The notes under the pieces are model-generated. The model was not told where the DNA came from and made no database searches. It saw only the letters and a list, made by a program, of their open reading frames with translations. Source: an uncultured Bacilli bacterium (GTDB lineage Bacteria; Bacillota_I; Bacilli_A; RF39; UBA660). Taken from it: a DNA stretch of 64,000 nucleotides. The stretch lies in assembly GCA_947629445.1 (NCBI GenBank), contig CANRDU010000005.1:1257-65256 (forward strand), given 5' to 3'. Position 1 is the first letter of the stretch; every line of letters starts with the position of its first letter. A program made the position numbers and the translations under genes. Positions 10,777 to 24,100 of the stretch are shown here, piece by piece.

Positions 10777-13112
10777 TTCCAAACCCATTCTCTAACTTCT
10801 TTTAGGTCTTCTCCATATTCTTCGATATAGTGCTTATGCTCAATTAGTTTTTCTTGCATTTCTTGAATAATATAAGCACATTCTCCTTCTATTTTAGGAA
10901 CTCGTCTTACAATATCCATAACAAGGTGATATCTATCAATATGATTTTGGACACGCATATCAAATGGTGTCGTAATAGTACCTTCTTCAATATATCCTCT
11001 TACATGTAAATCTCTGTTGTTACGGTAATAGAGAAGTTCGTGAATTAAAGAAGGATAACCATGATAGGCAAATACAATTGGCTTATCGGTTGTAAATAAT
11101 TCATCATATTCTTGATCACTTAGACCATGCGGATGTTTAGATTGAGGTTGTAATTTCATTAAATCAACTACATTGATTAATCGAACTTTAATATCGATTT
11201 TCTTTTCTTTTAAAATAGTAATAGCAGCGAGGGCTTCTAAAGTTGGCGTATCTCCAGCACACGCAAGAACGACATCTGGTTCTCCACCATTATCGGTACT
11301 AGCCCATTTCCAAATACTAATTCCTTGTGTACAATGTTTAATTGCTTCATCCATTGTTAGCCACTGCGGTCTAGGATGTTTAGAAGTAACCATTACATTG
11401 ATATAGTTTCTACTTCGGATACAGTGATCAAAAACGGATAGTAAACAGTTTGTGTCGGGAGGAAGATAAATCCTTACAATATCAGCTTTTTTGGTAGCCA
11501 TATGGTCTAGGAAACCAGGATCTTGGTGCGTAAATCCATTGTGATCTTGTTGCCATACATTGGACGATAATAGATAATTTAAAGAAGCGATACTCTGTCG
11601 CCAAGGTAGTTCACTAGTTACTTTTAGCCATTTAGCATGTTGACTTGCCATAGAATCGATAATTCGAATGAAAGCTTCATAACTAGCAAATACACCGTGT
11701 CTACCCGTTAAAAGATATCCTTCTAACCATCCTTCACACATATGCTCACTAAGCATAGAATCCATTACTCTTCCGTCGCTAGCTAAAAATTCATCATTAT
11801 CAAATTTGGTAGCATTCCAAGCACGATTTGTTTTTTCAAATACTTTTGATAAACGGTTAGACATTGTTTCATCTGGACCAAAAATACGGAAGTTTTTATT
11901 TTCTTCATTGAGCGCAAAAATATCTCTAATAAATCCTCCAAGTTCTAACATATCTTGTGCTTCTATTTCACCAGGCTTCTTAAAGTCAAGAGCATAATCT
12001 TTAAAATCCGGTAATCGTAAATCTTTTAGTAATAATCCTCCATTCGCATGAGGATTAGCACCCATTCTTCTGTTCCCTTTAGGCGGAAAATTTTGTAGTC
12101 TTTCGATAAGGGTTCCATTTTCATCAAAGTAATCTTCTGGGTGATAACTTTTTAACCACTCTTCAATCATTTTTACGTGACTTTCTTTTTCCATAGAGAT
12201 AGGTACTTGATGGGCTCTAAAAGTTCCTTCAATTTCTTTATCATCGACAAATTTAGGACCAGTCCATCCTTTTTTAGACCGAAAAATAATCATAGGATAA
12301 AATGGTCTTCGATCATCATCCAACATTCTAGCATGTTTCCAAATACTTCCAATTTCAAGAACAATTCTATCGAGAGTATGTGCCATTAATTGATGCATTT
12401 CTACAATGTCATCTGCTTCAACAAAGTAAGGATGCCATCCACAGCCTTCAAAAAAACGAGCGAGTTCTTGCTTTGAAATTCTAGAAAAAATAGTAGGGTT
12501 ACTAATTTTATAGCCGTTTAAATGTAAGATGGGAAGGACAATTCCATCTTTTTTGGGATTCAAGAATTTATTAGAATGCCAAGCGGTTGCTAATGGACCC
12601 GTTTCGGCTTCTCCATCGCCAATGACACATGCAGCAATTAAATTAGGATTATCAAATACGGCTCCAAAAGCATGAGCGAGGGAATATCCTAATTCACCAC
12701 CTTCATTAATAGAACCCGGAGTTTCTGGGGCAACATGACTGGAAATTCCCCCAGGAAAAGAAAATTGCTTGAAAAGTTTTTTCATTCCTTCTTTATCTCT
12801 ACTAATATTTGGGTATATTTCACTATAGGTTCCGTCTAAATAATTTTGGGCAACCATGGCATTCCCACCATGTCCAGGACCAGAAATATAAATCATATTT
12901 AAATCATTTTTTTTAATAATACGATTTAAATGGGTATAAATAAAGTTTTGACCCGGAACCGTTCCCCAATGACCTACTATTTTCTTTTTGATATGTTCTC
13001 TTTTTAGAGGTTCTTCTAGTAGGGGGTTATCTAGTAAGTATAGTTGTCCTAGTGCTAAATAATTGGAAGCATTCCAATAATCATTTAGGGTTTTTAATTC
13101 TGTAAAATCCAT
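10773..13112 (-). CDS. xfp: xylulose-5-phosphate/fructose-6-phosphate phosphoketolase
   Basis: Signature N-terminus ([39 protein letters not shown]), EGGELGY, ThDP-type GDGEAETGP. About 780 aa. Confidence 0.95.
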
Positions 13113-13217
13113 AAAACCGCCTCTCTATTCTCATTAATATTTTACTATAAAAGTGTGTATTTATCAACGAGAAAGCATTTTTTAAACATTTTTTTCATAG
13201 GTTGTAGTGGTGATAAA

Positions 13218-13706
13218 ATGAACTGTCGAGTAGAAAAGCCTTATCCTGTTATACAAGTAGAAAAAGAAAATGTAGAATATGCCAAAATTTTATTGGAAGA
13301 TTATGCAGGAGAAGGAGGAGAAGATACTGCTATTCATGAATATTTGTATCAGAGTATTACCCAAGTAGAAATTACCAATACTTTGAAAGAAATTGCTATT
13401 GTAGAAATGCATCATTTGCGGATATTAGGAGAACTAATTTGGAAGTTAGGATATCCGCCATCCTTTTATACGATTGATAGTAATATTGGCTGTTATTTAC
13501 CATGGACGAGTTCTTATTTGAATTATTCACTCGATATTCATGAAGTTATAATGGAAGATATTGAAAGGGAAAGAAAAACTATTCAACGATATCAAAAACA
13601 TATTGAGATGATTGGTGATCACTATATTCAAGATATCCTAACAAGAATCATAGAAGATGAACAAATGCACATCACTTGTCTCCTTAAAATATGTGAAGAG
13701 TTGTAA
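13218..13706 (+). CDS. ferritin-like / Mn-catalase-family (CotJC-like) protein
   Basis: CotJC-like N-terminus (EKPYPVIQVEKENVEYAKILLEDYAGEGGE) and paired E..H metal motifs (EMHHL, EDEQMH). ATG 13218 has a GGTGAT RBS. Confidence 0.55.
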   Translation: MNCRVEKPYPVIQVEKENVEYAKILLEDYAGEGGEDTAIHEYLYQSITQVEITNTLKEIAIVEMHHLRILGELIWKLGYPPSFYTIDSNIGCYLPWTSSYLNYSLDIHEVIMEDIERERKTIQRYQKHIEMIGDHYIQDILTRIIEDEQMHITCLLKICEEL

Positions 13707-13731
13707 ATTTTTATAAAATTAATCTTGATGT

Positions 13732-13757
13732 CGAATCAATTATTTTGATTCTTTTTT
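13732..13757 (+). terminator. intrinsic terminator
   Basis: GAATCAA / TTGATTC stem followed by T7. Confidence 0.6.
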
Positions 13758-13809
13758 TGTATATTTTCTAAAAATTTATCCCAGTATAAAAATAGAAAGG
13801 AATGATGTT

Positions 13810-14025
13810 ATGAATACAGTACCAGCCATGGTATCTACGAAAGATTTATCATATTTAGAAGATATGATGAATTGGAATTTTACACTCTCTAAAAAGGCTA
13901 ATCATTATAGTACAGAAGTAACGGATGTTGTATTGAAAGAGGCATTTTCTAATTTAGCTACTACTTTAAAAAAACATTACCAAGAATTGTTAGATGCTTT
14001 ATACACAGGAGGTTCCAATGAATAA
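13810..14025 (+). CDS. small hypothetical protein, partner of the CotF-like gene
   Basis: 71-aa ORF. Its stop overlaps the start of the next gene within ATGAATAA. Confidence 0.5.
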   Translation: MNTVPAMVSTKDLSYLEDMMNWNFTLSKKANHYSTEVTDVVLKEAFSNLATTLKKHYQELLDALYTGGSNE

Positions 14026-14332
14026 TAATACTGTATCAAATCCTAAAGTAGAAGTTCCACAAACCGTATCTATGAATGATCAAGATTATCTAAATGATTT
14101 ATTAGAATGTTTAAAAAATATGGTAAATAATTATTCTTATGCTTTAAATGAAATGAGTAATCATGAATTATATGATAAGATTAAACCTATTTTTGATAAG
14201 ACTTCACAATTACAAAGATTATTTTTTGATTATGCCTTTCAAAGAGGATGGTATGAATTAGAAAAGGCAGAAGCTACTAAGATTACGCAGGCTTATCAGA
14301 AATTTAATGGTAAGGTAAATGAAATGGTTTAA
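14018..14332 (+). CDS. Coat F domain (CotF-like) spore coat protein
   Basis: DQDYLNDLLECLKNMVNNYSYALNEMSNHELYDKI matches the Coat F helix pattern. AGGAGG lies 6 nt before the ATG at 14018. Confidence 0.6.
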   Translation: MNNNTVSNPKVEVPQTVSMNDQDYLNDLLECLKNMVNNYSYALNEMSNHELYDKIKPIFDKTSQLQRLFFDYAFQRGWYELEKAEATKITQAYQKFNGKVNEMV

Positions 14333-14335
14333 AAA

Positions 14336-14357
14336 AGACGCTTTATGCGTCTATTTT
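14336..14357. terminator. bidirectional terminator
   Basis: AGACGC / GCGTCT stem with loop TTTAT, flanked by an A-run and a T-run. Confidence 0.6.
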
Positions 14358-14851
14358 TCGTTATTACCAAGTAGAGGACAAGAATATTCCGATAATAATT
14401 GATTGACCTCCATAATATTGTAAATATGTTCTTGGATACAAAAACGAATAATTAAATCAAAAATCGTATTCTTAGGAAGGGAAAAAGAGGCTTTGGTCAG
14501 TAGTTTTTCAAACTCTGAAGTTGTTAATTCTAAAGCTAGTCCTAAAGCAATAACGGTTTCTTTACTGGGATGATAATTTTCATTTCTTATTTTTGAGAAA
14601 AGTCTTCTATCTATATGTGCTTTATGGTATAAGTCAGAATCTTTCCATCCTTTTTGATCAATTAAAGAAAATAAGTAGGAGGAAAAAGAGTCCTCTTTTG
14701 CTTGATTGATAAAATCCTTTACGGATGACTTTGTTGTCACAGCTTTCTTATAAGCGAAGGTATTAAATTCATCATATAATATGTTTTTTTCTTCTTGTAA
14801 ATATTCTAAGTTTTCCTGTATATATAATCTTAATTTCTTTTGAATATCCAT
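14351..14851 (-). CDS. putative HTH-domain protein
   Basis: C-terminal XRE-like segment HIDRRLFSKIRNENYHPSKETVIALGLALELTTSEFEKLL. RBS AAGGAGA upstream. Confidence 0.5.
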   Translation of the reverse strand: MDIQKKLRLYIQENLEYLQEEKNILYDEFNTFAYKKAVTTKSSVKDFINQAKEDSFSSYLFSLIDQKGWKDSDLYHKAHIDRRLFSKIRNENYHPSKETVIALGLALELTTSEFEKLLTKASFSLPKNTIFDLIIRFCIQEHIYNIMEVNQLLSEYSCPLLGNNEK

Positions 14852-14924
14852 AAAAATGTCTCCTTCTAAGCGACCAAATAAAGTGGTTTTTCTTATATCA
14901 TTATAACATGAAAGGAAGGATTAT

Positions 14925-15515
14925 ATGAAAAAGAAAACAGAAATCGTCTTCTTGCTAGATAGAAGTGGTTCGATGGCGGGATTAGAAAGTGATACGATAG
15001 GAGGATACAATCATTTTATAGAGGAACAGAAAAAAATAAAAGGGGAAGTAAATTTAACAACTGTGTTATTTGATAATAAATATGAGCTCCTTCATGATGG
15101 GGAAGATATTCAAAAAGTAAAACCAATTACTGAAAAAGAATATTTTGTAAGAGGCACAACTGCTCTTATGGATGCTATTGGATTGACCATTACAAAGATT
15201 CAAAAAAGAGCAAAGAATAAGAAAGTCATTTTTGTTATTACTACAGACGGTATTGAAAATGCTTCTAAGGAGTATACTAAAGCAAAAATTAAGACTATGA
15301 TTTCCTCATTAAAAGAGTGGGAGTTTATTTATTTAGGCGCTAACATAGATGCTTATGCAGAGGGAATGTCTATTGGAATTTCTCAAAAAAATATTGCCAA
15401 TTACCAAGCAGACAAAACTTGTACGAAAAAGATGTACTCTTGTATTTCTAAAGCAGTAACTACTCTAGCCAATGATAATTCTTTGGAAGATAGTTGGAAA
15501 CAAGAATTAGAATAA
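14925..15515 (+). CDS. cytoplasmic von Willebrand factor A (vWA) domain protein, TerY-like size
   Basis: MIDAS DxSxS motif in VFLLDRSGSM, plus GTTALMDA and ITTDGIEN. No signal peptide. 196 aa. Confidence 0.8.
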   Translation: MKKKTEIVFLLDRSGSMAGLESDTIGGYNHFIEEQKKIKGEVNLTTVLFDNKYELLHDGEDIQKVKPITEKEYFVRGTTALMDAIGLTITKIQKRAKNKKVIFVITTDGIENASKEYTKAKIKTMISSLKEWEFIYLGANIDAYAEGMSIGISQKNIANYQADKTCTKKMYSCISKAVTTLANDNSLEDSWKQELE

Positions 15516-15523
15516 ATATTTTT

Positions 15524-15552
15524 AAAGATAGTATAAATGTACTATCTTTTTT
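15524..15552 (+). terminator. intrinsic terminator of the vWA gene
   Basis: 10-bp stem AAAGATAGTA / TACTATCTTT with loop TAAATG, followed by a T-run. Confidence 0.75.
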
Positions 15553-15560
15553 GTTATAAT
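15552..15560 (+). promoter_or_regulatory. extended -10 element (TGTTATAAT) upstream of the RT leader
   Basis: TGn-TATAAT immediately after the vWA terminator. No good -35, as is usual for extended -10 promoters. Confidence 0.5.
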
Positions 15561-15566
15561 AAAACT

Positions 15567-15705
15567 GGAAGAGATGTGGAAACACTACTTGCAGCGGGTT
15601 CAGTATATTGCACAAAAATAGGTCTTGCAAGTGACGCAATATATATAATCCTGTCATTAATCGTTACACGATTATTCAATCAGTTCTCTTCCTTGGTGGT
15701 GAGGT
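15567..15705 (+). ncRNA. candidate structured leader / RT-associated ncRNA (hypothetical)
   Basis: Stems ACTTGCA/TGCAAGT (15587-93 / 15626-32) and ATATTGC/GCAATAT (15605-11 / 15636-42) are interleaved. Hairpin TAATCGT-TAC-ACGATTA at 15658-15674. The extent assumes a TSS just after the -10. Confidence 0.3.
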
Positions 15706-16893
15706 ATGTCTGTTTTAAACAGGTTAATAGATGAAGATGCTTGGAATTCTTTTTTACAGTATAAAGAAAGCCAGTATGTACCAGAAAAAGAATGGCAAAA
15801 ACTAAAAGACTACATTCAAAATAAAAAATATTTAAAAATTGCTCAAAAAATCGTTGATGAAAATTATACATTTTCTATTCCTAATAAAAAGATCATTAAT
15901 AAAAATGGTTCCTATAAAAAAAGAATTGTTTATTCTTATTCGGAAGAAGAAACATTGATATTAAAAATGATTCACTATTTATTTTTTGAATATGATAGTT
16001 TATTAGCGCCCAACTGTTATTCTTTTCGAAAAAATATTGGTCCGAAACAAGCTTTTAAACAAGTTACCAAGGGTGTAAAAGGTTATGGATATAAGGTAGA
16101 TATCCATAACTATTTTAATAGTATTTCCGTTTCAAAATTATTAAATATCTTACAAGAAGAAGTTGATAGAAAAGATTATAATTTTTTAAAAAAGATATTA
16201 GAAAATAAAAAAGTTTTGTATAAAGGAGAAGTCACAGAGGAAGAAAAAGGGGTTATGGCAGGAACTCCTATCTCTTGCTTTTTATCCAATTTGTATCTAT
16301 CGAAACTAGACTTTGCTATGCAAGATGTTTGTTATGCAAGATATGCAGACGACATCATTATTTTTGCACCGACGCAAGAAGAATTAACGGATAAGATAAA
16401 ATATATGCATCATTACTTTGCTAGTTTAGATTTGGTAATTAATCCAGACAAGGAGTGTTATATTACTCCAGGAGAACCCTTTGAATTTTTAGGATTTTCT
16501 TATTACCATAAGGTAATAGATTTATCTTCTCATGCTAAGAAAAAAATGAAAGCGAAAATAAGGAGAAAAGCGAAGGCTTTAAGAAGATGGATGTTGCGCA
16601 AAAATCTTTCAAGTGATAAAGCAATTAAGGCTATGAATAATATTTTTAATTATAAATTTTTTTATGAGAAAAAAGGAAAAGAATTAAACTGGAGTATTTG
16701 GTATTTTCCAATATTAACAACGGATAAGGGATTAAGAGAAATTGATCATTATTTCCAAGAACAGTTACGGTATATAAAAACAGGTAATCATCACTTTTCT
16801 AATATGGGGAAAGTTCCTTATTCCTATTTGAAAGAATTAGGATATAGAAGCCTTGTACATGAGTATTATCAATTTCAAAAACATAGGGGATAG
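15706..16893 (+). CDS. reverse transcriptase (RNA-directed DNA polymerase); free-standing, group-II-intron-like fingers/palm plus basic thumb
   Basis: RT motifs in order: KKRIVYSYSEEETLILKMI, CYSFRKNIGPKQA, YKVDIHNYFNSI, GVMAGTPISCFLSNLYL, YARYADDIIIFA (YADD at nt 16342-16353), LVINPDKE, FEFLGFSY, then KKKMKAKIRRKAKALRRW. SD-like GGTGGTGAGG upstream. Confidence 0.9.
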   Translation: MSVLNRLIDEDAWNSFLQYKESQYVPEKEWQKLKDYIQNKKYLKIAQKIVDENYTFSIPNKKIINKNGSYKKRIVYSYSEEETLILKMIHYLFFEYDSLLAPNCYSFRKNIGPKQAFKQVTKGVKGYGYKVDIHNYFNSISVSKLLNILQEEVDRKDYNFLKKILENKKVLYKGEVTEEEKGVMAGTPISCFLSNLYLSKLDFAMQDVCYARYADDIIIFAPTQEELTDKIKYMHHYFASLDLVINPDKECYITPGEPFEFLGFSYYHKVIDLSSHAKKKMKAKIRRKAKALRRWMLRKNLSSDKAIKAMNNIFNYKFFYEKKGKELNWSIWYFPILTTDKGLREIDHYFQEQLRYIKTGNHHFSNMGKVPYSYLKELGYRSLVHEYYQFQKHRG

Positions 16894-16898
16894 CTGTT

Positions 16899-16927
16899 TT
16901 GACATCCTCTTTTTCTTATGATAAAAT
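16899..16927 (+). promoter_or_regulatory. near-consensus promoter between the RT gene and the next gene
   Basis: TTGACA (16899-16904), 17-nt spacer ending in TGA, TAAAAT (16922-16927). Confidence 0.55.
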
Positions 16928-16953
16928 AGGCGACTGTTAAGGGGGAATTTATA

Positions 16954-17670
16954 ATGAAAATATCATCAAAAGACAATTATAAATATTTAAAGGCAGTGGC
17001 AGAATATTTAAGAAAATATAAAAGTGGATATTCTAAGGAAGCACAATACTATATTCGTGATCATTTTTTCCATCCAGAGTCAGCTCGTAAAACACCAGAT
17101 TTAATGATGCAGATATATGCAGAGTGCGATATGTTACCAGAAGAGGAAAATTGGTATTTAGGTTTTTCCAAAATGATTGGAGAGCGTTATGGTTGGGATT
17201 ACCGTGTATTAGAGGTAGGAGGCGGATTTTTTCCAGCTTTTGCAAAATATATGGATGAAGGACAACGAGCACATGGTGCGAGAGGAACTATCACGACTTA
17301 TGATCCTAGATTAGTAACGACTAAATTAGGTGGTATTACTCTAAAAAAAGAGGAGTTCACAAGAGCAACAAATATAGAATCTTACGATATTTTAGTAGGA
17401 ATTATGCCATGTCAATTAACGAGATTAATTATTGATAAGGCAACAGAAGCTCATAAAGAATTTTTTATTGCTATGTGTGGGTGTACACATTTTACAAAGC
17501 AGGAATTACAGGAAAGATATCAAGGTATGAGAAATCCATTTTATAGTGAATGGGTTGATGAGGTTTATGATTATGCTTATGAAAAAGCCCATGATGAGTT
17601 TTTGGTTCGTTTAGAAGATTGTTCTCAATATTCTTTTCCATATCCTGTTGTTAGTACAAAGAAAAAGTAG
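16954..17670 (+). CDS. hypothetical protein with Rossmann/class-I-methyltransferase-like core (UPF0146-like)
   Basis: VLEVGGGFFPAFAKYM (G-rich loop after a beta strand), TTYDPRL, YDILVGIMPCQLTRLIIDKA...FFIAMCG. RBS AAGGGGGA upstream. Family assignment is from memory. Confidence 0.45.
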   Translation: MKISSKDNYKYLKAVAEYLRKYKSGYSKEAQYYIRDHFFHPESARKTPDLMMQIYAECDMLPEEENWYLGFSKMIGERYGWDYRVLEVGGGFFPAFAKYMDEGQRAHGARGTITTYDPRLVTTKLGGITLKKEEFTRATNIESYDILVGIMPCQLTRLIIDKATEAHKEFFIAMCGCTHFTKQELQERYQGMRNPFYSEWVDEVYDYAYEKAHDEFLVRLEDCSQYSFPYPVVSTKKK

Positions 17671-17672
17671 GA

Positions 17673-18413
17673 ATGAATATGAATAAGTATGATAAATTAT
17701 ATGATGAAATTCAAAATGGGCACTATCTTCGGGGGGAACAATTAGCAAAAACAATCATTCAAGAGGTTGAAAAACAATTAGGATTTCATTTTCAATTTCA
17801 GCAAACGGCGGATTATACTAATCAACTTCTTGCGTTAATAGCAACGAAATATCAACCGTATTTTTTGCCACTTCTGGAAAAATATGGGTATAGTTATTTT
17901 GGGGAAATGCAACATATTATTCGTAATATGGGATTTTTTCCTAATCCTCAAGGAATGATAAAGTTTCCGAATTGTTTGGGTTGTCAAATGATTCCTGGTG
18001 GATATGTTTTAGAAACTACGAGAGGGAATATTACAGTATATTATGCATCTCAATATTTTTCTAATTTGAAACCATATATTTTATTGTTTAAGTGTCATAG
18101 TGCTTGTTTGGATGTTTTACATGGTTTCGGAGGTTTGAGTGCAAGTACAGGACTAATTGATTTACCATTAGGTGGGAAACATTATCACTCTTTTATTAAT
18201 TATGGAAATGGCATTATTGATTTAGCTCACAATGCCTACTTATCGAAAGATGATTATGACCTTGCTTTTCACCCTGAGGTATTAAATACAGTTACGGCAG
18301 ATATATTAGAAGAGGAAGAAAAAAGGATTAATCAACAAGAAAGTCTATCAAAACCGAAACAACTTCTCCTTCGATTAGCACTAGATAAACAAATAAAAAA
18401 GAAAGAAACTTAA
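17673..18413 (+). CDS. hypothetical protein with possible Cys-His-Asp (transglutaminase/papain-like) signature
   Basis: LFKCHSACLDVLHGFGG ... GKHYHSFINYGNGIIDLAHN. It starts 2 nt after the previous stop (ATG 17673 or 17679). Confidence 0.4.
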   Translation: MNMNKYDKLYDEIQNGHYLRGEQLAKTIIQEVEKQLGFHFQFQQTADYTNQLLALIATKYQPYFLPLLEKYGYSYFGEMQHIIRNMGFFPNPQGMIKFPNCLGCQMIPGGYVLETTRGNITVYYASQYFSNLKPYILLFKCHSACLDVLHGFGGLSASTGLIDLPLGGKHYHSFINYGNGIIDLAHNAYLSKDDYDLAFHPEVLNTVTADILEEEEKRINQQESLSKPKQLLLRLALDKQIKKKET

Positions 18414-18464
18414 ATTGGAAGTGGTTTATTTTAAATTTCCAACGCCAAACTTAAGTTTCTTTCT
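18397..18464. terminator. large nested inverted repeat / bidirectional terminator
   Basis: Perfect 15-bp outer arms AAGAAAGAAACTTAA / TTAAGTTTCTTTCTT with an inner TTGGAA/TTCCAA stem, between convergent genes. Confidence 0.7.
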
Positions 18465-18749
18465 TTATTTTTTCTTATGAAAAGCAATTTTATAGCGAAA
18501 TCCTGATTTTTCAATGATAATGTAAGAATTTTTTTCTCGCTCATAACGAACTGGTGTTTTTTTTGTGTAGGCATTCATTAGGAGTAACTGCTCGTATTCT
18601 TCGATACCTCCAGACACGTAATAAGTGATTCTTTTGTAGGTATCTGTTTCTGTTACAATAGGACCTTTTTTGATTTTACCAGTATAGGCTGGAAATTCGC
18701 CAAATTCGATTGGTAATTGCATTTTCTTTTTTCCAAATAGTGATAGCAT
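18465..18749 (-). CDS. hypothetical small protein
   Basis: 94-aa ORF with a GAAAGGA RBS. No motif recognised. Confidence 0.45.
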   Translation of the reverse strand: MLSLFGKKKMQLPIEFGEFPAYTGKIKKGPIVTETDTYKRITYYVSGGIEEYEQLLLMNAYTKKTPVRYEREKNSYIIIEKSGFRYKIAFHKKK

Positions 18750-18855
18750 AGTTTTTGTATCCTTTCTGTTTTTAATTTTAACATAAATAAGAAATATTTA
18801 CTAGGAAGTGATTTCAAAAAAAGATTATTTTGATATAATGATTACGAGGTGGATT

Positions 18856-19587
18856 ATGAATCGAGTGGTATTAATTACAGGGGCAAGTAGAGGAATTGGA
18901 GCAAGTACTGCTTTACAATTTGCAAAGAATCATGACAAAGTCATTATCAATTATTGTCATAGCAAGGAAAGAGCAGATGCCCTTGTTCAAAAGATAGAAG
19001 AAATGGGTGAACAAGCTCTTGCAATTGCCTGTGATATTACAAAAGAAAATGAAATTCACGAAATGGTTGAAAAGGTTATTCATACTTATGGCAGAATCGA
19101 TGTTCTTGTGAATAATGCAGCGATTGATATTGGAGACTCATTCATGGATCACACGGTAGAAAATTTTAGAAAAGTAATCGATACGAATCTGATTGGAATG
19201 TTTTCTGTTAGTAGAGAAGTATCAAAATACATGTTACAGGAAAAAAAGGGTGTTATTATTAATTTGTCTTCTAATAATGGTATTGATTGTTATTCTCCTA
19301 TCAGTATCGATTATGATGCCTCTAAAGCAGCGATTATTAATTTAACGCATAATTTAGCATTACAATTTGCGCCTTATATTCGGGTGAATGCTGTCGCACC
19401 TGGATGGACAAAAACGGAATCCGTAATGGAAATGTCTCCTTCTTTTTTAGAGGAAGAAACTAAGAAAATTTTATTAGAGAGAATGGCAGAACCAGAAGAA
19501 ATTGCAAAAGTAATATTTTTCTTAGCTAGTGATGAGGCTAGTTATATAAATAGTACTGTTATTCGGATAGATGGAGGAATAAAATGA
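18856..19587 (+). CDS. SDR-family oxidoreductase (FabG-like)
   Basis: TGASRGIG cofactor motif, NNAA, catalytic YDASKAA. ATG 18856 has a GAGGTGG RBS. Confidence 0.9.
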   Translation: MNRVVLITGASRGIGASTALQFAKNHDKVIINYCHSKERADALVQKIEEMGEQALAIACDITKENEIHEMVEKVIHTYGRIDVLVNNAAIDIGDSFMDHTVENFRKVIDTNLIGMFSVSREVSKYMLQEKKGVIINLSSNNGIDCYSPISIDYDASKAAIINLTHNLALQFAPYIRVNAVAPGWTKTESVMEMSPSFLEEETKKILLERMAEPEEIAKVIFFLASDEASYINSTVIRIDGGIK

Positions 19588-20831
19588 CAAAAAAGGAATT
19601 AGAAAACTTTATCGAGGAATGTGAAGGTTCTTTAAAAGACGAATTTGCGATGATTGATAAACAGAGTTTTGAAAATAGTAGAAGAGTTTTAAAGGCTTTT
19701 CAAGATCATCATTTATCCATGGCTCATTTTGATTCTACAACGGGATATGGGTATGATGATTTAGGAAGAGATACCATCGAGAAAATATTTGCACAAGTAT
19801 TAGGTTCAGAAGATGCTCTTGTTCGTAATCAATTTATTTCGGGAAGTCATGCATTAACCGTTGCTCTTTTTGCTTATTTAAGACCAGGTGATTTGATGCT
19901 AAGTATTACAGGAACTCCCTATGACACTCTTCATGAAGTAATCGGTATCAAAGAAAATCCAAGTTCTTTAAAGTCTTTTGGAGTTTCCTATGATCAAATT
20001 GATTTAAAAGATGATGATTTTGATGAAAAACAGATTGTTGACTATTTACAAAATCACTCTGTCAAGTTGATAGAAATTCAACGCTCTAAAGGGTATTCTA
20101 CTAGAAAGAGTATTACGATAGACAAAGTAGAACATATTATAAAAACTATTAGAAAAATTGATAAAAAAGTAATAATTATGGTAGATAATTGCTACTGCGA
20201 GTTTGTCAGTGATAAAGAACCAGTAATGGTCGGGGCAGATGTCATGGTAGGGTCTCTCATCAAAAATTTAGGGGGAGGAATTGCTCCTAATGGTGCTTAT
20301 ATTGCAGGTAAAAAAGAATTAGTAGAATTAGCAGCAGAGCGTTTAACATTACCAGGCGAAGGAAGGGAAGTAGGACCTAGCCTAGGGGTAAATAAATCTT
20401 TAGCGCAAGGACTTTTTTTTGCTCCTAGTGTGGTAGCGAGTAGTTTGAAGATTGCTGTTTTAACTAGTTATGCTCTTGAAAAACTGGGTTATGAGGTAGA
20501 GCCTAAATATCAAGACAAAAGGGCAGATATTGTTCAAAATATATGTTTCCACGATGCGGATAAACTAATTCGTTATTGTCAAGGAATTCAAAAAGGATCC
20601 CCAATTGATGCTTTTGCTGTTCCAGAACCATGGGATATGCCAGGATATAGTGACAAAGTGATTATGGCGGCTGGTGCTTTTACACAGGGATCTTCTATTG
20701 AACTATCTTGCGATGGACCTATTAGAGAACCTTTTATTGCTTATCAACAAGGGGGACTTACCTATGAATATGGGAAGTTAGGACTACTTTCTGCATTAGA
20801 AGAGTTAGAAAAGTGCAAAGGTGATGAATAG
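19584..20831 (+). CDS. methionine gamma-lyase-family PLP protein (YnbB / aluminium-resistance-like)
   Basis: Characteristic N-terminus (FENSRRVLKAFQDHHLSMAHFDSTTGYGYDDLGRD). 4-nt overlap with the SDR gene. Confidence 0.75.
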   Translation: MTKKELENFIEECEGSLKDEFAMIDKQSFENSRRVLKAFQDHHLSMAHFDSTTGYGYDDLGRDTIEKIFAQVLGSEDALVRNQFISGSHALTVALFAYLRPGDLMLSITGTPYDTLHEVIGIKENPSSLKSFGVSYDQIDLKDDDFDEKQIVDYLQNHSVKLIEIQRSKGYSTRKSITIDKVEHIIKTIRKIDKKVIIMVDNCYCEFVSDKEPVMVGADVMVGSLIKNLGGGIAPNGAYIAGKKELVELAAERLTLPGEGREVGPSLGVNKSLAQGLFFAPSVVASSLKIAVLTSYALEKLGYEVEPKYQDKRADIVQNICFHDADKLIRYCQGIQKGSPIDAFAVPEPWDMPGYSDKVIMAAGAFTQGSSIELSCDGPIREPFIAYQQGGLTYEYGKLGLLSALEELEKCKGDE

Positions 20832-20908
20832 TTGGTAGTATTATGAAAATATGACAACAAGTTTTGCAAGAATATTTTGTTATTAGAAAAGATATTAAAG
20901 GGAAATGA

Positions 20909-20940
20909 GTTATGGACAAAAAAGTGCGTAACTTTTTTGA
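20909..20940 (+). repeat. degenerate copy of the adhesin-gene terminator (direct repeat partner of 28672-28703)
   Basis: GTTATGGACAAAAAAGTGCGTAACTTTTTTGA versus GTTATGGACAAAAAGTTCATAACTTTTTTTGA: 2 mismatches plus 2 single-nt indels. Confidence 0.7.
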
Positions 20941-21008
20941 TGTTCTGATGCGAAAAAAAGAATCTTTTTTGAACTTCTTTTTTTAAATTTATTTTTAAAA
21001 AATTTTAA

Positions 21009-21026
21009 TTTTTTTTTTTTTTTTTT
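21009..21026 (+). repeat. T18 homopolymer upstream of the giant surface-protein gene
   Basis: 18 consecutive T counted directly in the sequence. Confidence 0.95.
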
Positions 21027-21083
21027 GTGATATCTTTACTATGATAGATGTATAAGTAAAAAGGATAATGGGAGTAAAAAGTT

Positions 21084-21113
21084 TTGACTACAGACCATTG
21101 TTAAAAATATTAT
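21084..21113 (+). promoter_or_regulatory. candidate promoter of the surface-protein gene
   Basis: TTGACT, 18-nt spacer, TATTAT. An alternative -10, TATGAT at 21040-21045, would place the T-tract over the -35 and spacer. Confidence 0.4.
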
Positions 21114-21141
21114 CAAAAAAAACTAGTAGAGGTGAACGATT

Positions 21142-24100
21142 TTGAAAAAAATAAAATTTTCTAAAAGAGCAATTAGAAAAATGAAAAATATAAGTAAAAA
21201 GTGTGTACTACTTCTGTTAGTAGTTTCAGTATTTTTGCTTGAAATAGAATGGGGAATTTCTACAAGGATAGTAGGAGGAATTGTTTCTTTGTTAGGGGGA
21301 ACTTCAAACTCTAGTGAAGTCCAATCTATTTTAGCAAATTCAAAATCTTATGTAGCTGATAATAATACTATGGATAACTATATTAATTTCTTTAATCTAG
21401 CAAATAATTCTCGTGCTGCGGGTAGAGTTTGGGCTGATAAAACGGTTTCTAAAGGAGCTATTACTTTGGATATGGCAACAGATGGCTATGATGGCACTAT
21501 TACGAATAATAGCGAGTTTTTGCACGTTTATAGTTTATTAGGAAGTAGCCAAGTAGATAATACGACAGAAAGCATTCCGATGGATGTTATATTTGTTATT
21601 GACGTTTCTGCTTCCATGGGAGGAAGTGCAACTAGTTCAACAGGGAAGACAAAGGCAGATTCTCGTATTGGAAAAGTTGTCCAATCTATGAACGAAGGAA
21701 TTGACTATTTAATGAAAATTAATGGTGGTCAAAATCGGGTTGGAATTGTTGTTTATGGCTCTTATGCTGCAGAACTTTTACCTTTGGGACACTATACAGC
21801 AAATTCTGGTAACGAGTATATTACATTGACAAGTGATACTGGTGGAGATTGGAGACCGGGGGTTGGAAGCACCCAACATTTTAAATTAGGCACCAATGTT
21901 AAAGAAATTTCTGAAGCAAAAGAAGTTACCAATTGTGGCTCTAATACCAATCCACAATCAGGAATTTGGATGGGATTAAAACAGTTGTTTACTGCTGAAA
22001 ATACCGTATATACGACCTTTACTACCAAGACGAAAATTAGTAGACAGCCTATTCTTTTATTCTTTAGTGATGGTGGTGCTAATGCTATCTCTAAAGGAGA
22101 ATGGTATAATCCAAATGATACAGGATATGGAGCAGATGGTGGTAGTAGTAATCATAATGATGACTTACATCAAACTTTATTTGAAGCGAACACTGATACT
22201 AATCACAGCGCTGAGAATGGATCTACTGCTATTTTGCAAACTTTAATGACTGCTTCTTATGCAAAGTCCCGTGTTGAACATCATTATGCGGAGGAAGCTC
22301 AAAAAGCAGGAATTAGTGATGCACCAGTTTTAGACGTGTATTCTTTTGGAATTGATACGGCATCTATTCGCGCTTTAAATACGTCTAATTCAGGTGATAG
22401 AGGTGCTTGGGCAACTCCACGATTAAATGCTATTATGGACCCAAGTCGTTATTTTCAAGCTACGGATACGTATACCTATCCAAATAATATGACTTCACAA
22501 GCAAAGGCATCTACAGAAAATGTTATTGCCAATGCTTATAGTCAGTGGCAAAATTGGATTAATAATCAAACTGCGAGTTTACAATATCACCCAGGACGTT
22601 CTACGAGTTCATTATCTACTCTTGAATTTCCGCAACTTCCTAGTGATAACTACAATGGTGTTTCTAAGAGTGACATTATTAAAAATATTAATTTTGTTCC
22701 ATTAGATCATTTTCATGAAGTAGAATCTGAAAATTTATCGACTTTATTTAGTGAAATCTTACAAAAATTTTCTAGTGCTTGGTTTAAACCAGTAGCGGGT
22801 AATAATGATGCTGGTTTTAAAGAAGCGGTATCCTATATTGATCCCGTTGGTAAATATATGGAAGTGAAAGATGTTAGAAATGTTTTACTATTTGGAACTC
22901 TCTATAACGTCAAAAAAGATAAAATTGTTTATTATACGGAACAAGTAGATGGTCAAGTAACGGAATCAGAAACCAAACCTGAGCAATATAGTTATAGTCG
23001 TCAATATTATAAAATTGAATCAAGTAATAATGAAATTGAAAATCCTTGTTACAATTTAAAAGAAGGAGGAGAAAAAGTCACCTTCAAATTAAGTGAGATT
23101 GATATATATGTGGAGAAAACAAATGGTCATGCTGATACGGAGATTGGAAAAGGGATTGAATCAGATTCCCATTATGATGAAGCTTTACATATTAATGTTC
23201 CAACGAATGCTATTCCTCTTCAAGTAGCTACTATAGAGGTAAATACTCAGGGAAATGTTTCTTCTTATACAACCAATGTTAACAGTCCAACAATGTCTAC
23301 CCCTTTACGGGTATTCTATGATGTTGGGATTGCGGATGAATTTTTAACAGAAGATCGTTTAGATATCGATCTTGGAAAGTTAAGCGAAGAATATATCGAA
23401 GCGAATAAGGATAGTAATGGGGATTTATATTTTTATTCAAACTGGTATGTTAAAGATAAAAAATATGAGGGATATTCTACAGCAGGACCTCAAGAATATG
23501 GAGACACTGTTGTAAGTTTTTCTCCTAGTATTGATAATCGGTTCTATGTATTTCAACGGGCCTTACCTCTTTATGAGATGAGTAATCCTAGTGAAAGATA
23601 TTCAGAAATAGATTTAGAGGATGAGGCTACTTATCAAGCATGGATTAATAGTCATCAGCAAATTACCGATCCTTCTAAGATTAATTCTGATAGTTGGTAT
23701 TATATTGTTATTGATTATTATAAAGCAGGATCTTCTAAGCCTGTCCATGTAGCAGTTGCGAGAAAAGGAAATGAATTTGGTTCTGCTATTGCTGGAGATG
23801 ATGTAAAATCTGGAGAGTATTTATGCTGGTATAGTGCTCAAGCCAATGACTGGGAGCCGTATTCTAGTACTAAGCCATCTAAAGACGGAATTAATGACTG
23901 GGTAGTGGCAACAAAACCAGGTGGAATTCGTGTTGGAAATATGGCTAATAGTATTCAAGTAAAAAGTACGAACCCAACAAGAACTTCTAGAAATTATTAT
24001 GTTCCAACAATCAGTAATTCTACTAAGCCAGGAGATCAGGCACAAATTGTTATTAATAATTATTTAGGAAATAATGGTAGATTGAGTATATCTGATGCGA

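What the first reader, a model, noticed from the sequence alone, without database searches (positions are those of the whole stretch)
15516..18413. Orphan reverse transcriptase locus: candidate RT-based (defence-type) system
A 395-aa RT with all seven RT motifs and an intact catalytic triad (D132 in VDIHNYF, YADD at 16342-16353) sits alone in a housekeeping and sporulation neighbourhood. It does not fit the usual RT contexts:
- Group II intron: no domain V-like sequence, no GUGYG 5' end, no En/HNH domain, no split host gene.
- Retron: motif 7 is FLGF rather than VTG.
- DGR: motif 5 is GTPISCFLSN, and I saw no TR/VR repeat pair.
- CRISPR: no cas genes or array.
- Mobile element: no integrase or transposase.
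The gene follows its own extended -10 promoter and a leader of about 140 nt with conserved-looking stems. Two co-oriented genes of unknown function follow it. Stand-alone RT plus upstream ncRNA is the layout of the DRT/UG class of antiphage RTs, but I cannot assign this protein to a known UG/DRT group from sequence alone.
Basis: partly seen in the sequence, partly recalled or inferred. Interest (0 to 1): 0.8.

Follow-up and report, generated by a model that had tools for sequence, protein, structure and literature searches.

The report
UG26 reverse transcriptase with RT-5 RNA
This is a real, intact reverse transcriptase with its own structured RNA just upstream, but both parts belong to catalogued families (UG26 enzymes, Rfam RT-5 RNA) whose function has never been tested, so it is a new member of a known but uncharacterised kind.

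Summary
A 395-aa reverse transcriptase (RT; 15706-16893) with intact catalytic motifs follows an extended -10 promoter and a ~127-nt structured leader.

The "unassignable" RT matches the PADLOC RT_UG26 profile end to end (E 1.8e-142). The leader is Rfam RF03026 "RT-5 RNA", above its gathering score. In 44 related loci the RNA occurs once per RT gene.

I extended the RNA model:
- a 6-bp pseudoknot, 100% paired, with compensatory changes at every pair;
- a small 5' hairpin;
- a purine/pyrimidine closing helix of 7-19 bp, mostly outside the Rfam model.

Most UG26 loci in other clades read: small COG2852-like protein, RNA, RT. The window's clade (uncultured gut Bacilli) lacks that protein. There the RT+RNA pair sits at one syntenic chromosomal site, diverges in step with its neighbours, and is under purifying selection (dN/dS 0.10-0.35).

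The two downstream genes (a methyltransferase-fold protein and a 246-aa unknown) are not dependable partners.

Best reading: a two-part RT-RNA particle that copies part of its own RNA, as the characterised class-2 UG RTs (DRT2, DRT9, DRT10) do. A defence role is plausible but unproven, and the genomic context argues mildly against it.

The parts
15552..15560 (+). Extended -10 promoter (TG-n-TATAAT) driving the RNA and the RT
   Evidence: Read directly from the sequence. The same TGnTATAAT lies 7-8 nt upstream of the RNA 5' strand in L001-L005, L048 and L052. The generic promoter scan did not list it because there is no good -35. The start site near G15567 is inferred, not shown.
15567..15693 (+). 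Structured ncRNA / 5' leader: Rfam RT-5 RNA extended by a closing helix and a 5' hairpin
   Evidence: Rfam RF03026 hit at 15583-15687, 48.6 bits (gathering 45.7), E 3.6e-7, full model. My covariance model R1 hits 15569-15706 at 95.9 bits, the only hit in the 64-kb window. The MFE fold is -34.1 kcal/mol, z -3.9, and reproduces the comparative structure.
15567..15574 (+). Closing helix, purine-rich 5' strand (GGAAGAGA); pairs with 15685-15692
   Evidence: Duplex search in 44 loci finds 7-19 bp helices at the same place, with clade-specific sequences. Own-locus versus cross-locus test on 33 non-redundant loci: -17.2 vs -11.1 kcal/mol, longest helix 11.8 vs 9.0 bp, permutation p < 1/5000.
15576..15585 (+). 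P0: small hairpin GUG-GAAA-CAC (GNRA loop), 5' of where the Rfam model starts
   Evidence: Found independently by RNAalifold. 82% of cells paired, and all 4 pairs show changes on both sides. Also present in the MFE fold.
15587..15592 (+). Pseudoknot, 5' strand (ACUUGC); pairs with apical-loop nucleotides 15627-15632
   Evidence: Alignment A3 columns 38-43 with 83-88: 100% of cells paired in 39 sequences, and 6 of 6 pairs show changes on both sides. The helix was not part of the model the alignment was fitted to.
15596..15651 (+). P1: long three-part hairpin (15596-15600/15647-15651; 15603-15611/15636-15644; 15622-15624/15633-15635). Its apical loop carries the pseudoknot 3' strand GCAAGU (15627-15632).
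   Evidence: RNAalifold: 18 of 21 predicted pairs show compensatory changes. Pair counts of 90.7%, 91.4% and 96.8% paired for the three segments; whole structure 92.4% paired, against 30-45% when the partners are slid by 1-3 columns. The G-U pair at A3 columns 55/141 is invariant in 43 of 43 sequences.
15658..15674 (+). P3: 7-bp hairpin of variable sequence, followed by a conserved UCAA-type motif
   Evidence: Present in the Rfam consensus and in the MFE fold. A hairpin is found at this place in nearly all loci when each is folded on its own.
15685..15692 (+). Closing helix, pyrimidine-rich 3' strand (UCUCUUCC), 13 nt before the RT start codon
15706..16893 (+). UG26-family (class 2 UG/Abi) reverse transcriptase, 395 aa
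   Evidence: PADLOC RT_UG26 E 1.8e-142, residues 1-392 on profile 1-397/398. Catalytic residues invariant. AlphaFold2 pLDDT 93.1. Nearest solved folds are group II intron RT GsI-IIC (TM 0.73-0.77), G2L4 (0.70) and DRT9 (0.63-0.65). dN/dS 0.10-0.35 within the clade.

Best explanation
The locus is a two-part unit. One part is a UG26-family reverse transcriptase (class 2 of the UG/Abi lineage). The other is its cognate structured RNA, encoded immediately upstream and transcribed with it from an extended -10 promoter.

The RNA is about 127 nt and is the Rfam RT-5 motif. Its elements are:
- a purine/pyrimidine closing helix;
- a small GNRA hairpin;
- a single strand that forms a 6-bp pseudoknot with the apical loop of a long hairpin;
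- a second hairpin of variable sequence.

Shown:
- the family membership of both parts;
- the strict one-RNA-per-RT association across two phyla;
- the RNA architecture;
- purifying selection on the RT, and compensatory change in the RNA, within this clade.

Inferred:
- The RT binds this RNA to form a ribonucleoprotein and uses a segment of it as template for cDNA synthesis. This is the way every characterised class-2 UG RT works (DRT2, DRT9, DRT10).
- The closing helix and pseudoknot fix the RNA in the enzyme and bound the template.
- Because the 3' strand of the closing helix ends 13 nt before the start codon, particle formation could also limit RT translation.

The most likely biological role is antiphage defence, as for the tested relatives. 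This lineage lacks the small COG2852-like protein that precedes the RNA in most other UG26 loci. Here the RT-RNA pair would therefore have to act alone, as DRT2 and DRT9 do, or through an unlinked host factor.

My confidence by level:
- identity as UG26 + RT-5: about 0.95;
- self-templated cDNA synthesis by an RT-RNA particle: about 0.55;
- antiphage role for this particular copy: about 0.4.
For: RT identity:
- RT_UG26 E 1.8e-142, full length; the next groups are UG27 and UG4 at about 1e-35.

RNA identity and association:
- RF03026 above its gathering score in the window and in 10 of 11 diverse relatives.
- My model finds the RNA in 44 of 51 sources, once per RT locus. It finds none in the RT-less locus L050.

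RNA structure:
- 92.4% of cells paired against 72% for shuffles and 30-45% for slid controls. Covariation score 0.631 against 0.265, reached by 0 of 500 shuffles.
- Pseudoknot 100% paired, with changes on both sides at all 6 pairs.
- Closing helix own-locus vs cross-locus p < 1/5000.
- The single-sequence fold agrees, z -3.9.
- Within the window's own clade L005 shows a compensatory pseudoknot change (ACUGGU/GCCAGU against ACUUGC/GCAAGU).

Selection on the RT:
- dN/dS 0.10-0.35. All catalytic residues retained. Confident RT fold.

Mechanistic analogy:
- Class-2 UG RTs use ncRNA templates for repetitive cDNA synthesis (PMC12632851; abstracts).
- Mestre et al. 2022 place UG26 in their section on class 2 UG/Abi RTs and list a COG2852 accessory protein for 9 of 35 members (PMC9226505).
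Against: - No experiment exists for any UG26 member. Literature search found only Mestre et al. 2022 and a cold-seep virome survey.
- Mestre et al. scored UG26 'inconclusive' for defence association.
- This copy is not in a defence island or mobile element. It sits at one syntenic site between CotF-type spore-coat genes and an SDR/Met-gamma-lyase pair in all relatives. It diverges in step with those neighbours.
- No empty site was found among the few genomes carrying the flanking 94-aa gene. That pattern is unusual for defence genes.
- No effector is present: the c1 profile finds nothing in the 64-kb window.
- I could not identify a template. A DRT10-style A-B-A' repeat is not supported (own-locus 5.25 vs cross-locus 5.13, p 0.2).
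- Neighbours of UG26 loci in other clades are mostly housekeeping genes. Only one subgroup lies next to a Type IIG R-M gene.
Confidence: 0.55

Rival explanations
1. A domesticated, non-defence RT-RNA particle. In this Bacilli lineage the UG26 RT and its RNA were acquired once without the accessory protein. They have since been kept as an ordinary chromosomal gene for a cellular task, for example DNA repair or gap filling (as proposed for the group II-like RT G2L4) or synthesis of a cellular DNA or RNA-DNA product.
For: - Same syntenic position in every relative found.
- RT divergence (61-67% identity) lies within the range of the flanking chromosomal genes (53-87%), and L004 is the most distant for all of them.
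- Purifying selection.
- No empty site among carriers of the flanking 94-aa gene.
- No UG26 relatives on plasmids, phages or IMG/VR contigs.
- No effector.
- The fold is closest to group II intron RTs and G2L4.
Against: - The sample of this lineage is small (about a dozen genomes), and the first loci were found by searching with the RT itself.
- L013 carries a 5'-truncated RT remnant without the RNA at the same site, so the gene is dispensable in at least one member.
- Across the wider family the RT is scattered over Bacteroidales and several Bacillota families in unrelated contexts. That looks like horizontal spread.
- All tested class-2 UG RTs are antiphage.
Confidence: 0.2
2. A retron-like element. 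The closing helix plays the part of the a1/a2 repeats. The RT primes from a 2'-OH of a conserved G near the 5' strand and copies the variable P3 hairpin region into a small multicopy single-stranded DNA. That DNA holds an effector in check.
For: - The RNA is enclosed by a long-range helix whose sequence covaries.
- P3 is a hairpin of variable sequence at the position an msd stem would occupy.
- In other clades the layout of small protein, RNA, RT is tripartite like a retron.
- Weinberg et al. speculated that many RT motifs are retron RNAs (PMC5737381).
Against: - The RT scores far below retron thresholds: NCBIfam retron_St85_RT 61.6 bits against a cut-off of 235. PADLOC retron-type RT models score far below UG26.
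- Motif 7 is FLGF, not the retron VTG.
- Retron RTs are poorer structural matches (TM about 0.43-0.49) than group II RTs or DRT9.
- No effector is present here.
- A pseudoknot is not a retron msr feature, to my knowledge.
Confidence: 0.1
3. One reading: the RT, the 238-aa methyltransferase-fold protein and the 246-aa protein form one functional system, with the downstream proteins acting as effectors or modifiers.
For: - The 238-aa gene follows the RT in the window, L001, L003, L004, L005, L048 and L052-L057.
- Its family is tiny (22 clusters in 5.8 billion proteins) and is largely co-extensive with this RT clade.
- All three genes are on the same strand with short gaps.
Against: - L002 has the RT and RNA but no 238-aa gene.
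- The most distant 238-aa homologue sits next to rpsB and tsf with no RT nearby (L050/L051).
- None of the 41 loci of the other clades has it.
- The 246-aa gene lies 3 kb upstream, beside the HTH and vWA genes, in L004. It is replaced by an unrelated gene in L001-L003.
- A near-consensus promoter-like site (TTGACA-17-TAAAAT with TG) lies between the RT stop and the 238-aa gene.
- The adjacency cannot be separated from the general synteny of the whole block.
- Neither protein hits PADLOC, Pfam, NCBIfam or PHROGs.
Confidence: 0.1
4. A relic: a remnant of a group II intron or other retroelement with no present function.
For: - The best NCBIfam and structural similarities outside the UG models are to group II intron RTs.
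- One relative has a truncated copy (L013).
Against: - The ORF is intact, with invariant catalytic residues.
- dN/dS is 0.10-0.35.
- The RNA is conserved, with compensatory changes, across two phyla and inside this clade.
- No intron RNA domains at E<=1.
- Single copy, same site in all relatives.
Confidence: 0.03

Closest known systems
UG26 group of the UG/Abi reverse transcriptases (Mestre et al. 2022, NAR 50:6084; PADLOC model PDLC03764 RT_UG26)
   Same: Full-length profile match at E 1.8e-142. About 400 aa with no fused domain, treated by Mestre et al. under class 2. Hosts are gut and rumen Bacillota and Bacteroidota.
   Different: This copy and its clade lack the COG2852-like accessory protein (PADLOC RTasCOG2852). 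In my sample that protein precedes the RNA in 36 other loci: 35 by clustering plus L009 by profile search; weak PADLOC match. The published description mentions no ncRNA for UG26. The family is also far larger than the 35 members described: the best 120 database hits all score at least 362 bits.
Rfam RF03026, RT-5 RNA motif (Weinberg et al. 2017, NAR 45:10811)
   Same: Matches the whole model above its gathering score. Lies next to an RT gene, as the motif was defined.
   Different: The functional RNA is larger than the 104-position model. It has an extra 5' hairpin and a 7-19 bp purine/pyrimidine closing helix outside the model. I also show a pseudoknot. I could not check whether Rfam already annotates that pseudoknot, because cmscan output does not display pseudoknots and the paper's supplement is not held.
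DRT10 (UG17): RT + ncRNA + SLATT, protein-primed tandem-repeat cDNA synthesis, telomerase-like (PMC12632851)
   Same: Class-2 UG RT with a structured ncRNA encoded beside it. In most UG26 loci the layout is likewise tripartite (small protein, RNA, RT). The RNA has a stem-loop directly 5' of a single strand, a pseudoknot and an enclosing helix. These element types are discussed for telomerase and DRT10 RNAs.
   Different: The RT scores only 99.7 bits on the UG17 profile against 472.8 on UG26. There is no SLATT protein. The A-B-A' template signature was not found. Priming residue and product are unknown.
DRT2 (UG2) and DRT9 (UG28): two-component RT + upstream ncRNA defence systems
   Same: Same minimal layout as the window: promoter, ncRNA, RT, no separate effector gene. 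DRT9 is the second-best structural class (TM 0.63-0.65).
   Different: Weak profile scores: Drt2 58 bits and Drt9 73 bits. The RNA is unrelated in sequence and structure. The window RNA has no poly-U template loop of the DRT9 kind; the U/C-rich tract here is base-paired in the closing helix.
Group II intron RTs (GsI-IIC RT, PDB 6AR1/6AR3/7K9Y) and group II-like RT G2L4 (9D4S)
   Same: Best structural matches, TM 0.69-0.77 over the whole protein including the C-terminal helical region. Best NCBIfam hit is group_II_RT_mat.
   Different: 114 bits against a cut-off of 300. No intron RNA domains. No endonuclease domain. Single copy at a fixed site.
Retrons (msr-msd RNA + RT + effector)
   Same: RNA enclosed by a long-range helix, a hairpin of variable sequence, and the RT encoded beside the RNA.
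   Different: RT profile below threshold. FLGF instead of VTG. A pseudoknot is present. No effector here. The gene order in other clades is protein-RNA-RT, whereas retrons are, to my knowledge, usually RNA-RT-effector.

Membership tests
UG26 (class 2 UG/Abi RT) | Full-length match to the UG26 profile, clearly better than to any other RT group | tested here: met
   RT_UG26 472.8 bits, E 1.8e-142, residues 1-392 on profile 1-397/398. Next best are UG27 at 121.3, UG4 at 120.8 and UG17 at 99.7 bits.
UG26 (class 2 UG/Abi RT) | Intact RT catalytic core (motif A Asp, motif C YxDD) | tested here: met
   D132 and Y213-A-D215-D216 are invariant in 32 family members. RVT_1 E 6e-20.
UG26 (class 2 UG/Abi RT) | Class 2 criterion: RT not fused to any other known domain | tested here: met
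   RVT_1 is the only Pfam hit in 395 aa. The model shows an RT core plus a helical C-terminal region that aligns with group II RT thumb/D regions.
UG26 (class 2 UG/Abi RT) | Co-located COG2852-like accessory protein (Mestre cluster 1531; reported for 9 of 35 members, so accessory and not defining) | tested here: not met
   A profile of 35 c1 proteins finds nothing in the six-frame translation of the 64-kb window or of L001-L005.
UG26 (class 2 UG/Abi RT) | Antiphage function (the meaning of a DRT label) | not testable with these tools
   No experimental report for UG26. Defence association scored 'inconclusive' by Mestre et al..
Rfam RF03026 RT-5 RNA | Covariance-model score at or above the curated gathering score | tested here: met
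   48.6 bits against 45.7, whole model 1-104.
Rfam RF03026 RT-5 RNA | Conserved secondary structure supported by covariation, next to an RT gene | tested here: met
   44 loci, 92.4% of cells paired, 25 of 27 pairs with changes on both sides, slid controls 30-45%. The RNA lies upstream of the RT on the same strand in every locus that has a hit.
Mobile group II intron | Intron ribozyme domains flanking the RT ORF | tested here: not met
   No Rfam group II family at E<=1 in 12000-22000. The RNA lies on one side only and is about 127 nt.
Mobile group II intron | RT/maturase reaching the family threshold | tested here: not met
   TIGR04416 114.4 bits against a cut-off of 300.
Retron | Retron-type RT (profile threshold; VTG in motif 7) | tested here: not met
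   retron_St85_RT 61.6 bits against 235. FLGF at residues 261-264.
Retron | msr-msd RNA with a1/a2 repeats and a branching G | tested here: inconclusive
   A closing helix exists, but no branching G can be inferred from sequence. The pseudoknotted architecture differs from that of known msr RNAs.
Diversity-generating retroelement | Template/variable repeat pair near the RT | tested here: not met
   Only four chance-level direct repeats of 25-34 nt at 71-81% identity in 11000-21100.
DRT10 (UG17) | UG17 RT, SLATT partner, A-B-A' template loop | tested here: not met
   UG17 profile 99.7 bits against 472.8 for UG26. No SLATT among the neighbours. A-B-A' test p = 0.2.
DRT2 / DRT9 | Membership of UG2 or UG28 by profile | tested here: not met
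   Drt2 58 bits and Drt9 73.3 bits. NCBIfam Drt2 60.9 bits against a cut-off of 390.

The most novel reading that the evidence does not exclude
The UG26/RT-5 particle is a repeat-synthesising enzyme of the DRT10/telomerase type. Its RNA core consists of an enclosing helix, a boundary hairpin, a single strand and a pseudoknot, and it defines a short template. In this gut Bacilli lineage the particle has lost its COG2852-like partner and been fixed as a vertically inherited chromosomal gene. It therefore either acts as a self-sufficient immune module or has been taken over for a cellular, non-defence task.
Probability: 0.15. Interest if true: 0.75.

Novelty: new member of a known kind. Interest (0 to 1): 0.4.

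Why it matters
Every class-2 UG reverse transcriptase studied so far has shown an unexpected way of making DNA: DRT2 by de novo gene synthesis, DRT9 by poly-dA synthesis, DRT10 by telomerase-like repeats. UG26 has not been tested.

This work gives an experimenter a complete, compact construct: promoter, a 127-nt RNA with defined helices and a pseudoknot to mutate and restore, and a 395-aa RT. It links two database entries, PADLOC RT_UG26 and Rfam RT-5, that I found connected in no paper. It shows that the COG2852-like protein is a near-universal partner outside this clade.

It also identifies a lineage in which the RT-RNA pair persists alone at a fixed chromosomal site under purifying selection. 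That lineage is a natural test of whether the pair can function without the partner protein. The locus itself, however, belongs to known families and is not a new kind of system.

Tried and rejected
1. DRT10-style A-B-A' template repeat around hairpin P3. By eye several loci looked convincing. Own-locus vs cross-locus similarity was 5.25 vs 5.13 identities in the best 8-nt window, permutation p 0.2. Rejected. The reverse-complement signal in the same test (p 0.008) is probably trivial, because the 12-nt probe overlaps the P3 3' strand in some loci.
2. A hidden c1/COG2852 homologue in the window or in L001-L005: none found.
3. UG26 on mobile elements. Two IMG/VR scans found nothing. tblastn against 72,556 plasmids and 50,697 phages gave only hits at 28% identity or lower to other RT families. 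The host taxa are poorly represented in those collections, so this absence is weak evidence.
4. Empty-site test through the metagenome contig collection. I replaced it with a search for the flanking 94-aa protein and look-ups of its contigs. These found no empty site but covered only about ten protein clusters.
5. Sequence-level identification of c1 and the 238-aa protein against PDB: no significant hits. Only fold comparison placed the 238-aa protein among SAM-methyltransferase-like folds.
6. Weinberg 2017 supplement for an RT-5 drawing or pseudoknot annotation: not held.
7. DGR, CRISPR, tRNA-linked island and group II intron readings were rejected.
8. Anti-Shine-Dalgarno pairing of the pyrimidine tract with the RT ribosome-binding site. 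I checked it by hand on the window sequence and the pairing is poor. The tract is better explained as the closing-helix strand.

Full report
**1. What is there**

- The window carries an ORF at 15706..16893 (+) of 395 aa.
- It matches Pfam RVT_1 (E 6e-20).
- In a 32-member family alignment the catalytic residues are invariant: D132, Y213-A-D215-D216 (nt 16342-16353) and F261-L262-G263.
- Upstream lies TG(15552-15553)-n-TATAAT(15555-15560).
- Between that promoter and the start codon is a leader that folds much better than shuffled sequence: -34.1 kcal/mol, z -3.9.
- Two co-oriented ORFs follow, at 16954-17670 and 17673-18413.
  - No Rfam family other than the one below reaches E<=1 in 12-22 kb, so there are no group II intron domains.
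  - There are no TR/VR-like or array-like repeats.
  - There are no tRNAs.
  - No cas, integrase or transposase appears among the neighbours.

**2. Both parts belong to catalogued families**

- The RT matches the PADLOC RT_UG26 profile over its whole length (472.8 bits, E 1.8e-142). The next groups, UG27, UG4 and UG17, score 100-121 bits.
- It stays below the NCBIfam cut-offs for group II intron RT (114 vs 300), retron RT (62 vs 235), Drt2 and Drt3a.
- The leader at 15583-15687 matches Rfam RF03026 "RT-5 RNA" over the whole model at 48.6 bits (gathering score 45.7).
- RT-5 is one of 19 "RT motifs" that Weinberg et al. 2017 found next to RT genes and did not assign a function (PMC5737381).
- Mestre et al. 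2022 describe UG26 in their section on class 2 UG/Abi RTs (PMC9226505):
  - 35 members.
  - 9 of them lie next to a COG2852 (YcjD/Vsr-like) protein.
  - Defence association is "inconclusive".
  - No ncRNA is mentioned, and "RT-5" does not occur in the paper.
- Apart from a cold-seep virome survey I found no other relevant paper that mentions UG26.

**3. The family context**

- A scan of one genome per species returned 47 loci with RT homologues at 37-67% identity. All are gut or rumen Bacillota and Bacteroidota MAGs.
- The deep protein search shows the family is much larger than 35 members. The 120 best hits all score at least 362 bits.
- I clustered the ORFs of all loci. A small protein (cluster c1, 92-260 aa, mostly 130-205) lies upstream of the RT on the same strand in 35 loci. 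L009 is added by a profile search.
- The loci without c1, apart from the window's clade, mostly have the RT at a contig edge.
- c1 gives weak hits to the PADLOC model RTasCOG2852 (E 1.7e-9 and 1.3e-3), so it is Mestre's accessory cluster.
- c1 is very divergent (24% mean column identity). It has an N-terminal MGxF motif, a low-complexity linker and a C-terminal domain of about 100 aa.
- The window and its closest relatives (L001-L005, "uncultured Bacilli") have no c1. A c1 profile finds nothing in the six frames of the 64-kb window.

**4. The RNA**

- RF03026 is found above threshold in 10 of 11 diverse loci, always on the RT strand and upstream of it.
- A covariance model built from ten sequences finds the RNA in 44 of 51 sources, once per RT locus. 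It finds none in the RT-less locus L050, and there is only one hit in the window, at 15569-15706.
- The order is c1, RNA, RT.
  - In L008 and L009, trkA and trkH lie between the RNA and the RT.
  - In L040, L042 and L043 a 155-aa ORF lies there.
  - The RNA therefore need not be the RT's own leader.
- RNAalifold independently recovers the long hairpin P1 (18 of 21 pairs with compensatory changes) and a small hairpin P0 that lies 5' of the Rfam model.
- The conserved 5' tail is complementary to the apical loop of P1. Counted on the 44-sequence alignment, this 6-bp pseudoknot is paired in 100% of cells, and every pair changes on both sides. Examples are GCCUGC/GCAGGC, GCCCGU/ACGGGC, AUCCGC/GCGGAU and, in the window, ACUUGC/GCAAGU. 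The helix was not part of the model the alignment was fitted to.
- For the whole structure 92.4% of cells pair, against 72% for shuffles and 30-45% when partners are slid by 1-3 columns. The covariation score is 0.631 against 0.265.
- A purine-rich strand just 5' of P0 pairs with the pyrimidine-rich tract 3' of hairpin P3 over 7-19 bp. The strands are:
  - GGGGA/UCCCC in Bacteroidales.
  - AGAAAGAGAA/UUCUCUUUCU in many Clostridia.
  - GGACAGGC/GCCUGUCC in L034.
  - GGAAGAGA (15567-15574) with UCUCUUCC (15685-15692) in the window.
- Own-locus pairs are stronger than cross-locus pairs: -17.2 vs -11.1 kcal/mol, and 11.8 vs 9.0 bp. Permutation gives p < 1/5000 on 33 non-redundant loci.
- The single-sequence fold of 15567-15693 gives exactly this architecture.
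- Caveats:
  - The sequences are related, so shuffle counts are not probabilities. The slid and cross-locus controls are the more telling ones.
  - P0 and P1 were part of the fitted model.
  - I could not check whether Rfam already annotates the pseudoknot.

**5. The window's clade**

- In the window, L001-L005, L048 and L052-L057 the RT lies in one syntenic block:
  - CotF-type genes.
  - A variable gene or two.
  - RNA + RT.
  - The 238-aa gene.
  - A variable gene.
  - A 94-aa gene on the opposite strand.
  - An SDR.
  - A Met-gamma-lyase-family gene.
- RT identity to the window (61-67%) lies inside the range of the flanking genes (53-87%), and L004 is the most distant for every gene. This fits vertical co-inheritance.
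- dN/dS for the RT is 0.10-0.35. dS is near saturation, so the values are rough.
- L005 shows a compensatory pseudoknot change within the clade.
- The flanking 94-aa protein has only ten clusters in the database. Every contig long enough to judge also carries the RT, so I found no empty site.
- L013 has a 5'-truncated RT without the RNA at the same place. Loss can therefore occur.
- No UG26 relative was found in IMG/VR, plasmid or phage collections.
- UG26 neighbours in other clades are mostly housekeeping genes. One subgroup lies next to a Type IIG R-M gene.

**6. The downstream genes**

- The 238-aa protein has a confident model (pLDDT 92.1) with a class I SAM-methyltransferase-like fold (best TM 0.45-0.5, E about 1e-5). 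It carries motif I LEVGGG and an invariant C-G-C-x-H.
- Its family has 22 clusters.
- It is absent from L002, which has the RT. Its most distant homologue lies next to rpsB and tsf with no RT.
- The 246-aa protein has no family hit. In L004 it lies 3 kb upstream, beside the HTH and vWA genes.
- A near-consensus promoter-like site (TTGACA-17-TAAAAT with TG, 16899-16927) follows the RT stop.
- I therefore do not count these genes as parts of the system, although a lineage-specific link cannot be excluded.

**7. How it most likely works**

- Shown: an RT and an RNA that always travel together, both under selection.
- Inferred from the characterised class-2 UG RTs (DRT2, DRT9, DRT10): the RT binds the RNA and copies a segment of it.
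- The RT model (pLDDT 93.1) is closest to group II intron RT GsI-IIC (TM 0.73-0.77), G2L4 (0.70) and DRT9 (0.63-0.65). DRT2 (0.53) and retron RTs (0.43-0.49) are poorer matches.
- The RNA's enclosing helix, 5' hairpin, single strand and pseudoknot are element types discussed for telomerase and DRT10 RNAs. This is a resemblance and not a test, and a DRT10-style A-B-A' template signature was not found.
- The template, the primer and the product remain unknown.
- A defence role is the default by family. For this copy it is weakened by the fixed syntenic position and the missing partner protein.

**8. Verdict**

- The finding is real and well described.
- The locus is a member of known, uncharacterised families (UG26 and RT-5), not an unclassifiable orphan. 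Its extent is 15552-16893, not 15516-18413.
- New here:
  - The UG26 to RT-5 link.
  - The enlarged RNA architecture.
  - The near-universal c1 partner in other clades.
  - A partner-less, vertically inherited clade.
- Interest is moderate.

Noticed in passing
window 14925-15515 (+), 14351-14851 (-), 17673-18413 (+); L004 2901-4820: The vWA protein just upstream of the RNA matches phage family phrog_7371 at E 2.4e-56. The divergent HTH protein matches phrog_4031 weakly. In L004 the 246-aa gene, the HTH gene and the vWA gene lie side by side. These three may form a small module of their own that has been split by the RT in the window.
   Followed up: partly
window 16899-16927 (+): Near-consensus sigma-70-type site (TTGACA, 17 nt, TAAAAT, with TG) directly after the RT stop codon. 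It is the best promoter-like match in 14-19.5 kb and suggests the 238-aa gene is transcribed on its own.
   Followed up: no
window 16954-17670 (+): The 238-aa protein has a SAM-methyltransferase-like fold and an invariant C175-G-C177-x-H179 motif. Its family has only 22 clusters in 5.8 billion proteins. A distant member sits next to rpsB and tsf without any RT (L050/L051).
   Followed up: partly
L006-L047, gene immediately upstream of the RNA (e.g. L017 5416-5808, L008 2257-2829): The UG26 partner protein c1 (PADLOC RTasCOG2852) is extremely divergent. It has an N-terminal MGxF, a low-complexity linker and a C-terminal domain in which no acidic residue is conserved; the nearly invariant positions are one N, one Y and one R. 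The published 'Vsr-type endonuclease' label may therefore not describe an active nuclease.
   Followed up: partly
L008 2871-6001 and L009 2817-6001: trkA and trkH potassium-uptake genes lie between the c1-RNA pair and the RT. The RNA and the RT are therefore 3 kb apart and the RNA would have to act in trans. In L040, L042 and L043 a 155-aa ORF of unknown function occupies the same place.
   Followed up: partly
L013 1-1303: A 5'-truncated RT (starting near residue 103), with no RT-5 RNA, sits next to the conserved 94-aa gene. It is a decayed copy at the same syntenic site.
   Followed up: partly
L002 4923-5825, L003 4873-5826, L004 4949-5815, L048 2699-3565, L052 2694-3560: A 288-317-aa protein with a weak match to a PADLOC Ser/Thr-kinase model (STK_OB, E 2.2e-6) lies directly upstream of the RNA in several close relatives. 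It is absent from the window and from L001.
   Followed up: no
L038 7223-10012, L040, L041, L043 (downstream of the RT, opposite strand): An MmeI-type Type IIG restriction-modification gene lies next to the UG26 RT in one Bacteroidales subgroup. It is the only clear defence neighbour seen in the 47 loci.
   Followed up: no
window 21142-28668 (+): A 2508-aa ORF with an N-terminal signal-like segment, a vWA-like region and about a dozen tandem repeats of roughly 95 aa. It is probably a cell-surface adhesin (translation).
   Followed up: no
alignment A3, columns 55/141 and 49/148 (window G15603-U15644 and G15597-C15650): A G-U wobble pair at the base of the middle P1 segment is invariant in 43 of 43 sequences, and one G-C pair in P1a is also invariant. 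These are candidates for direct recognition by the RT.
   Followed up: no
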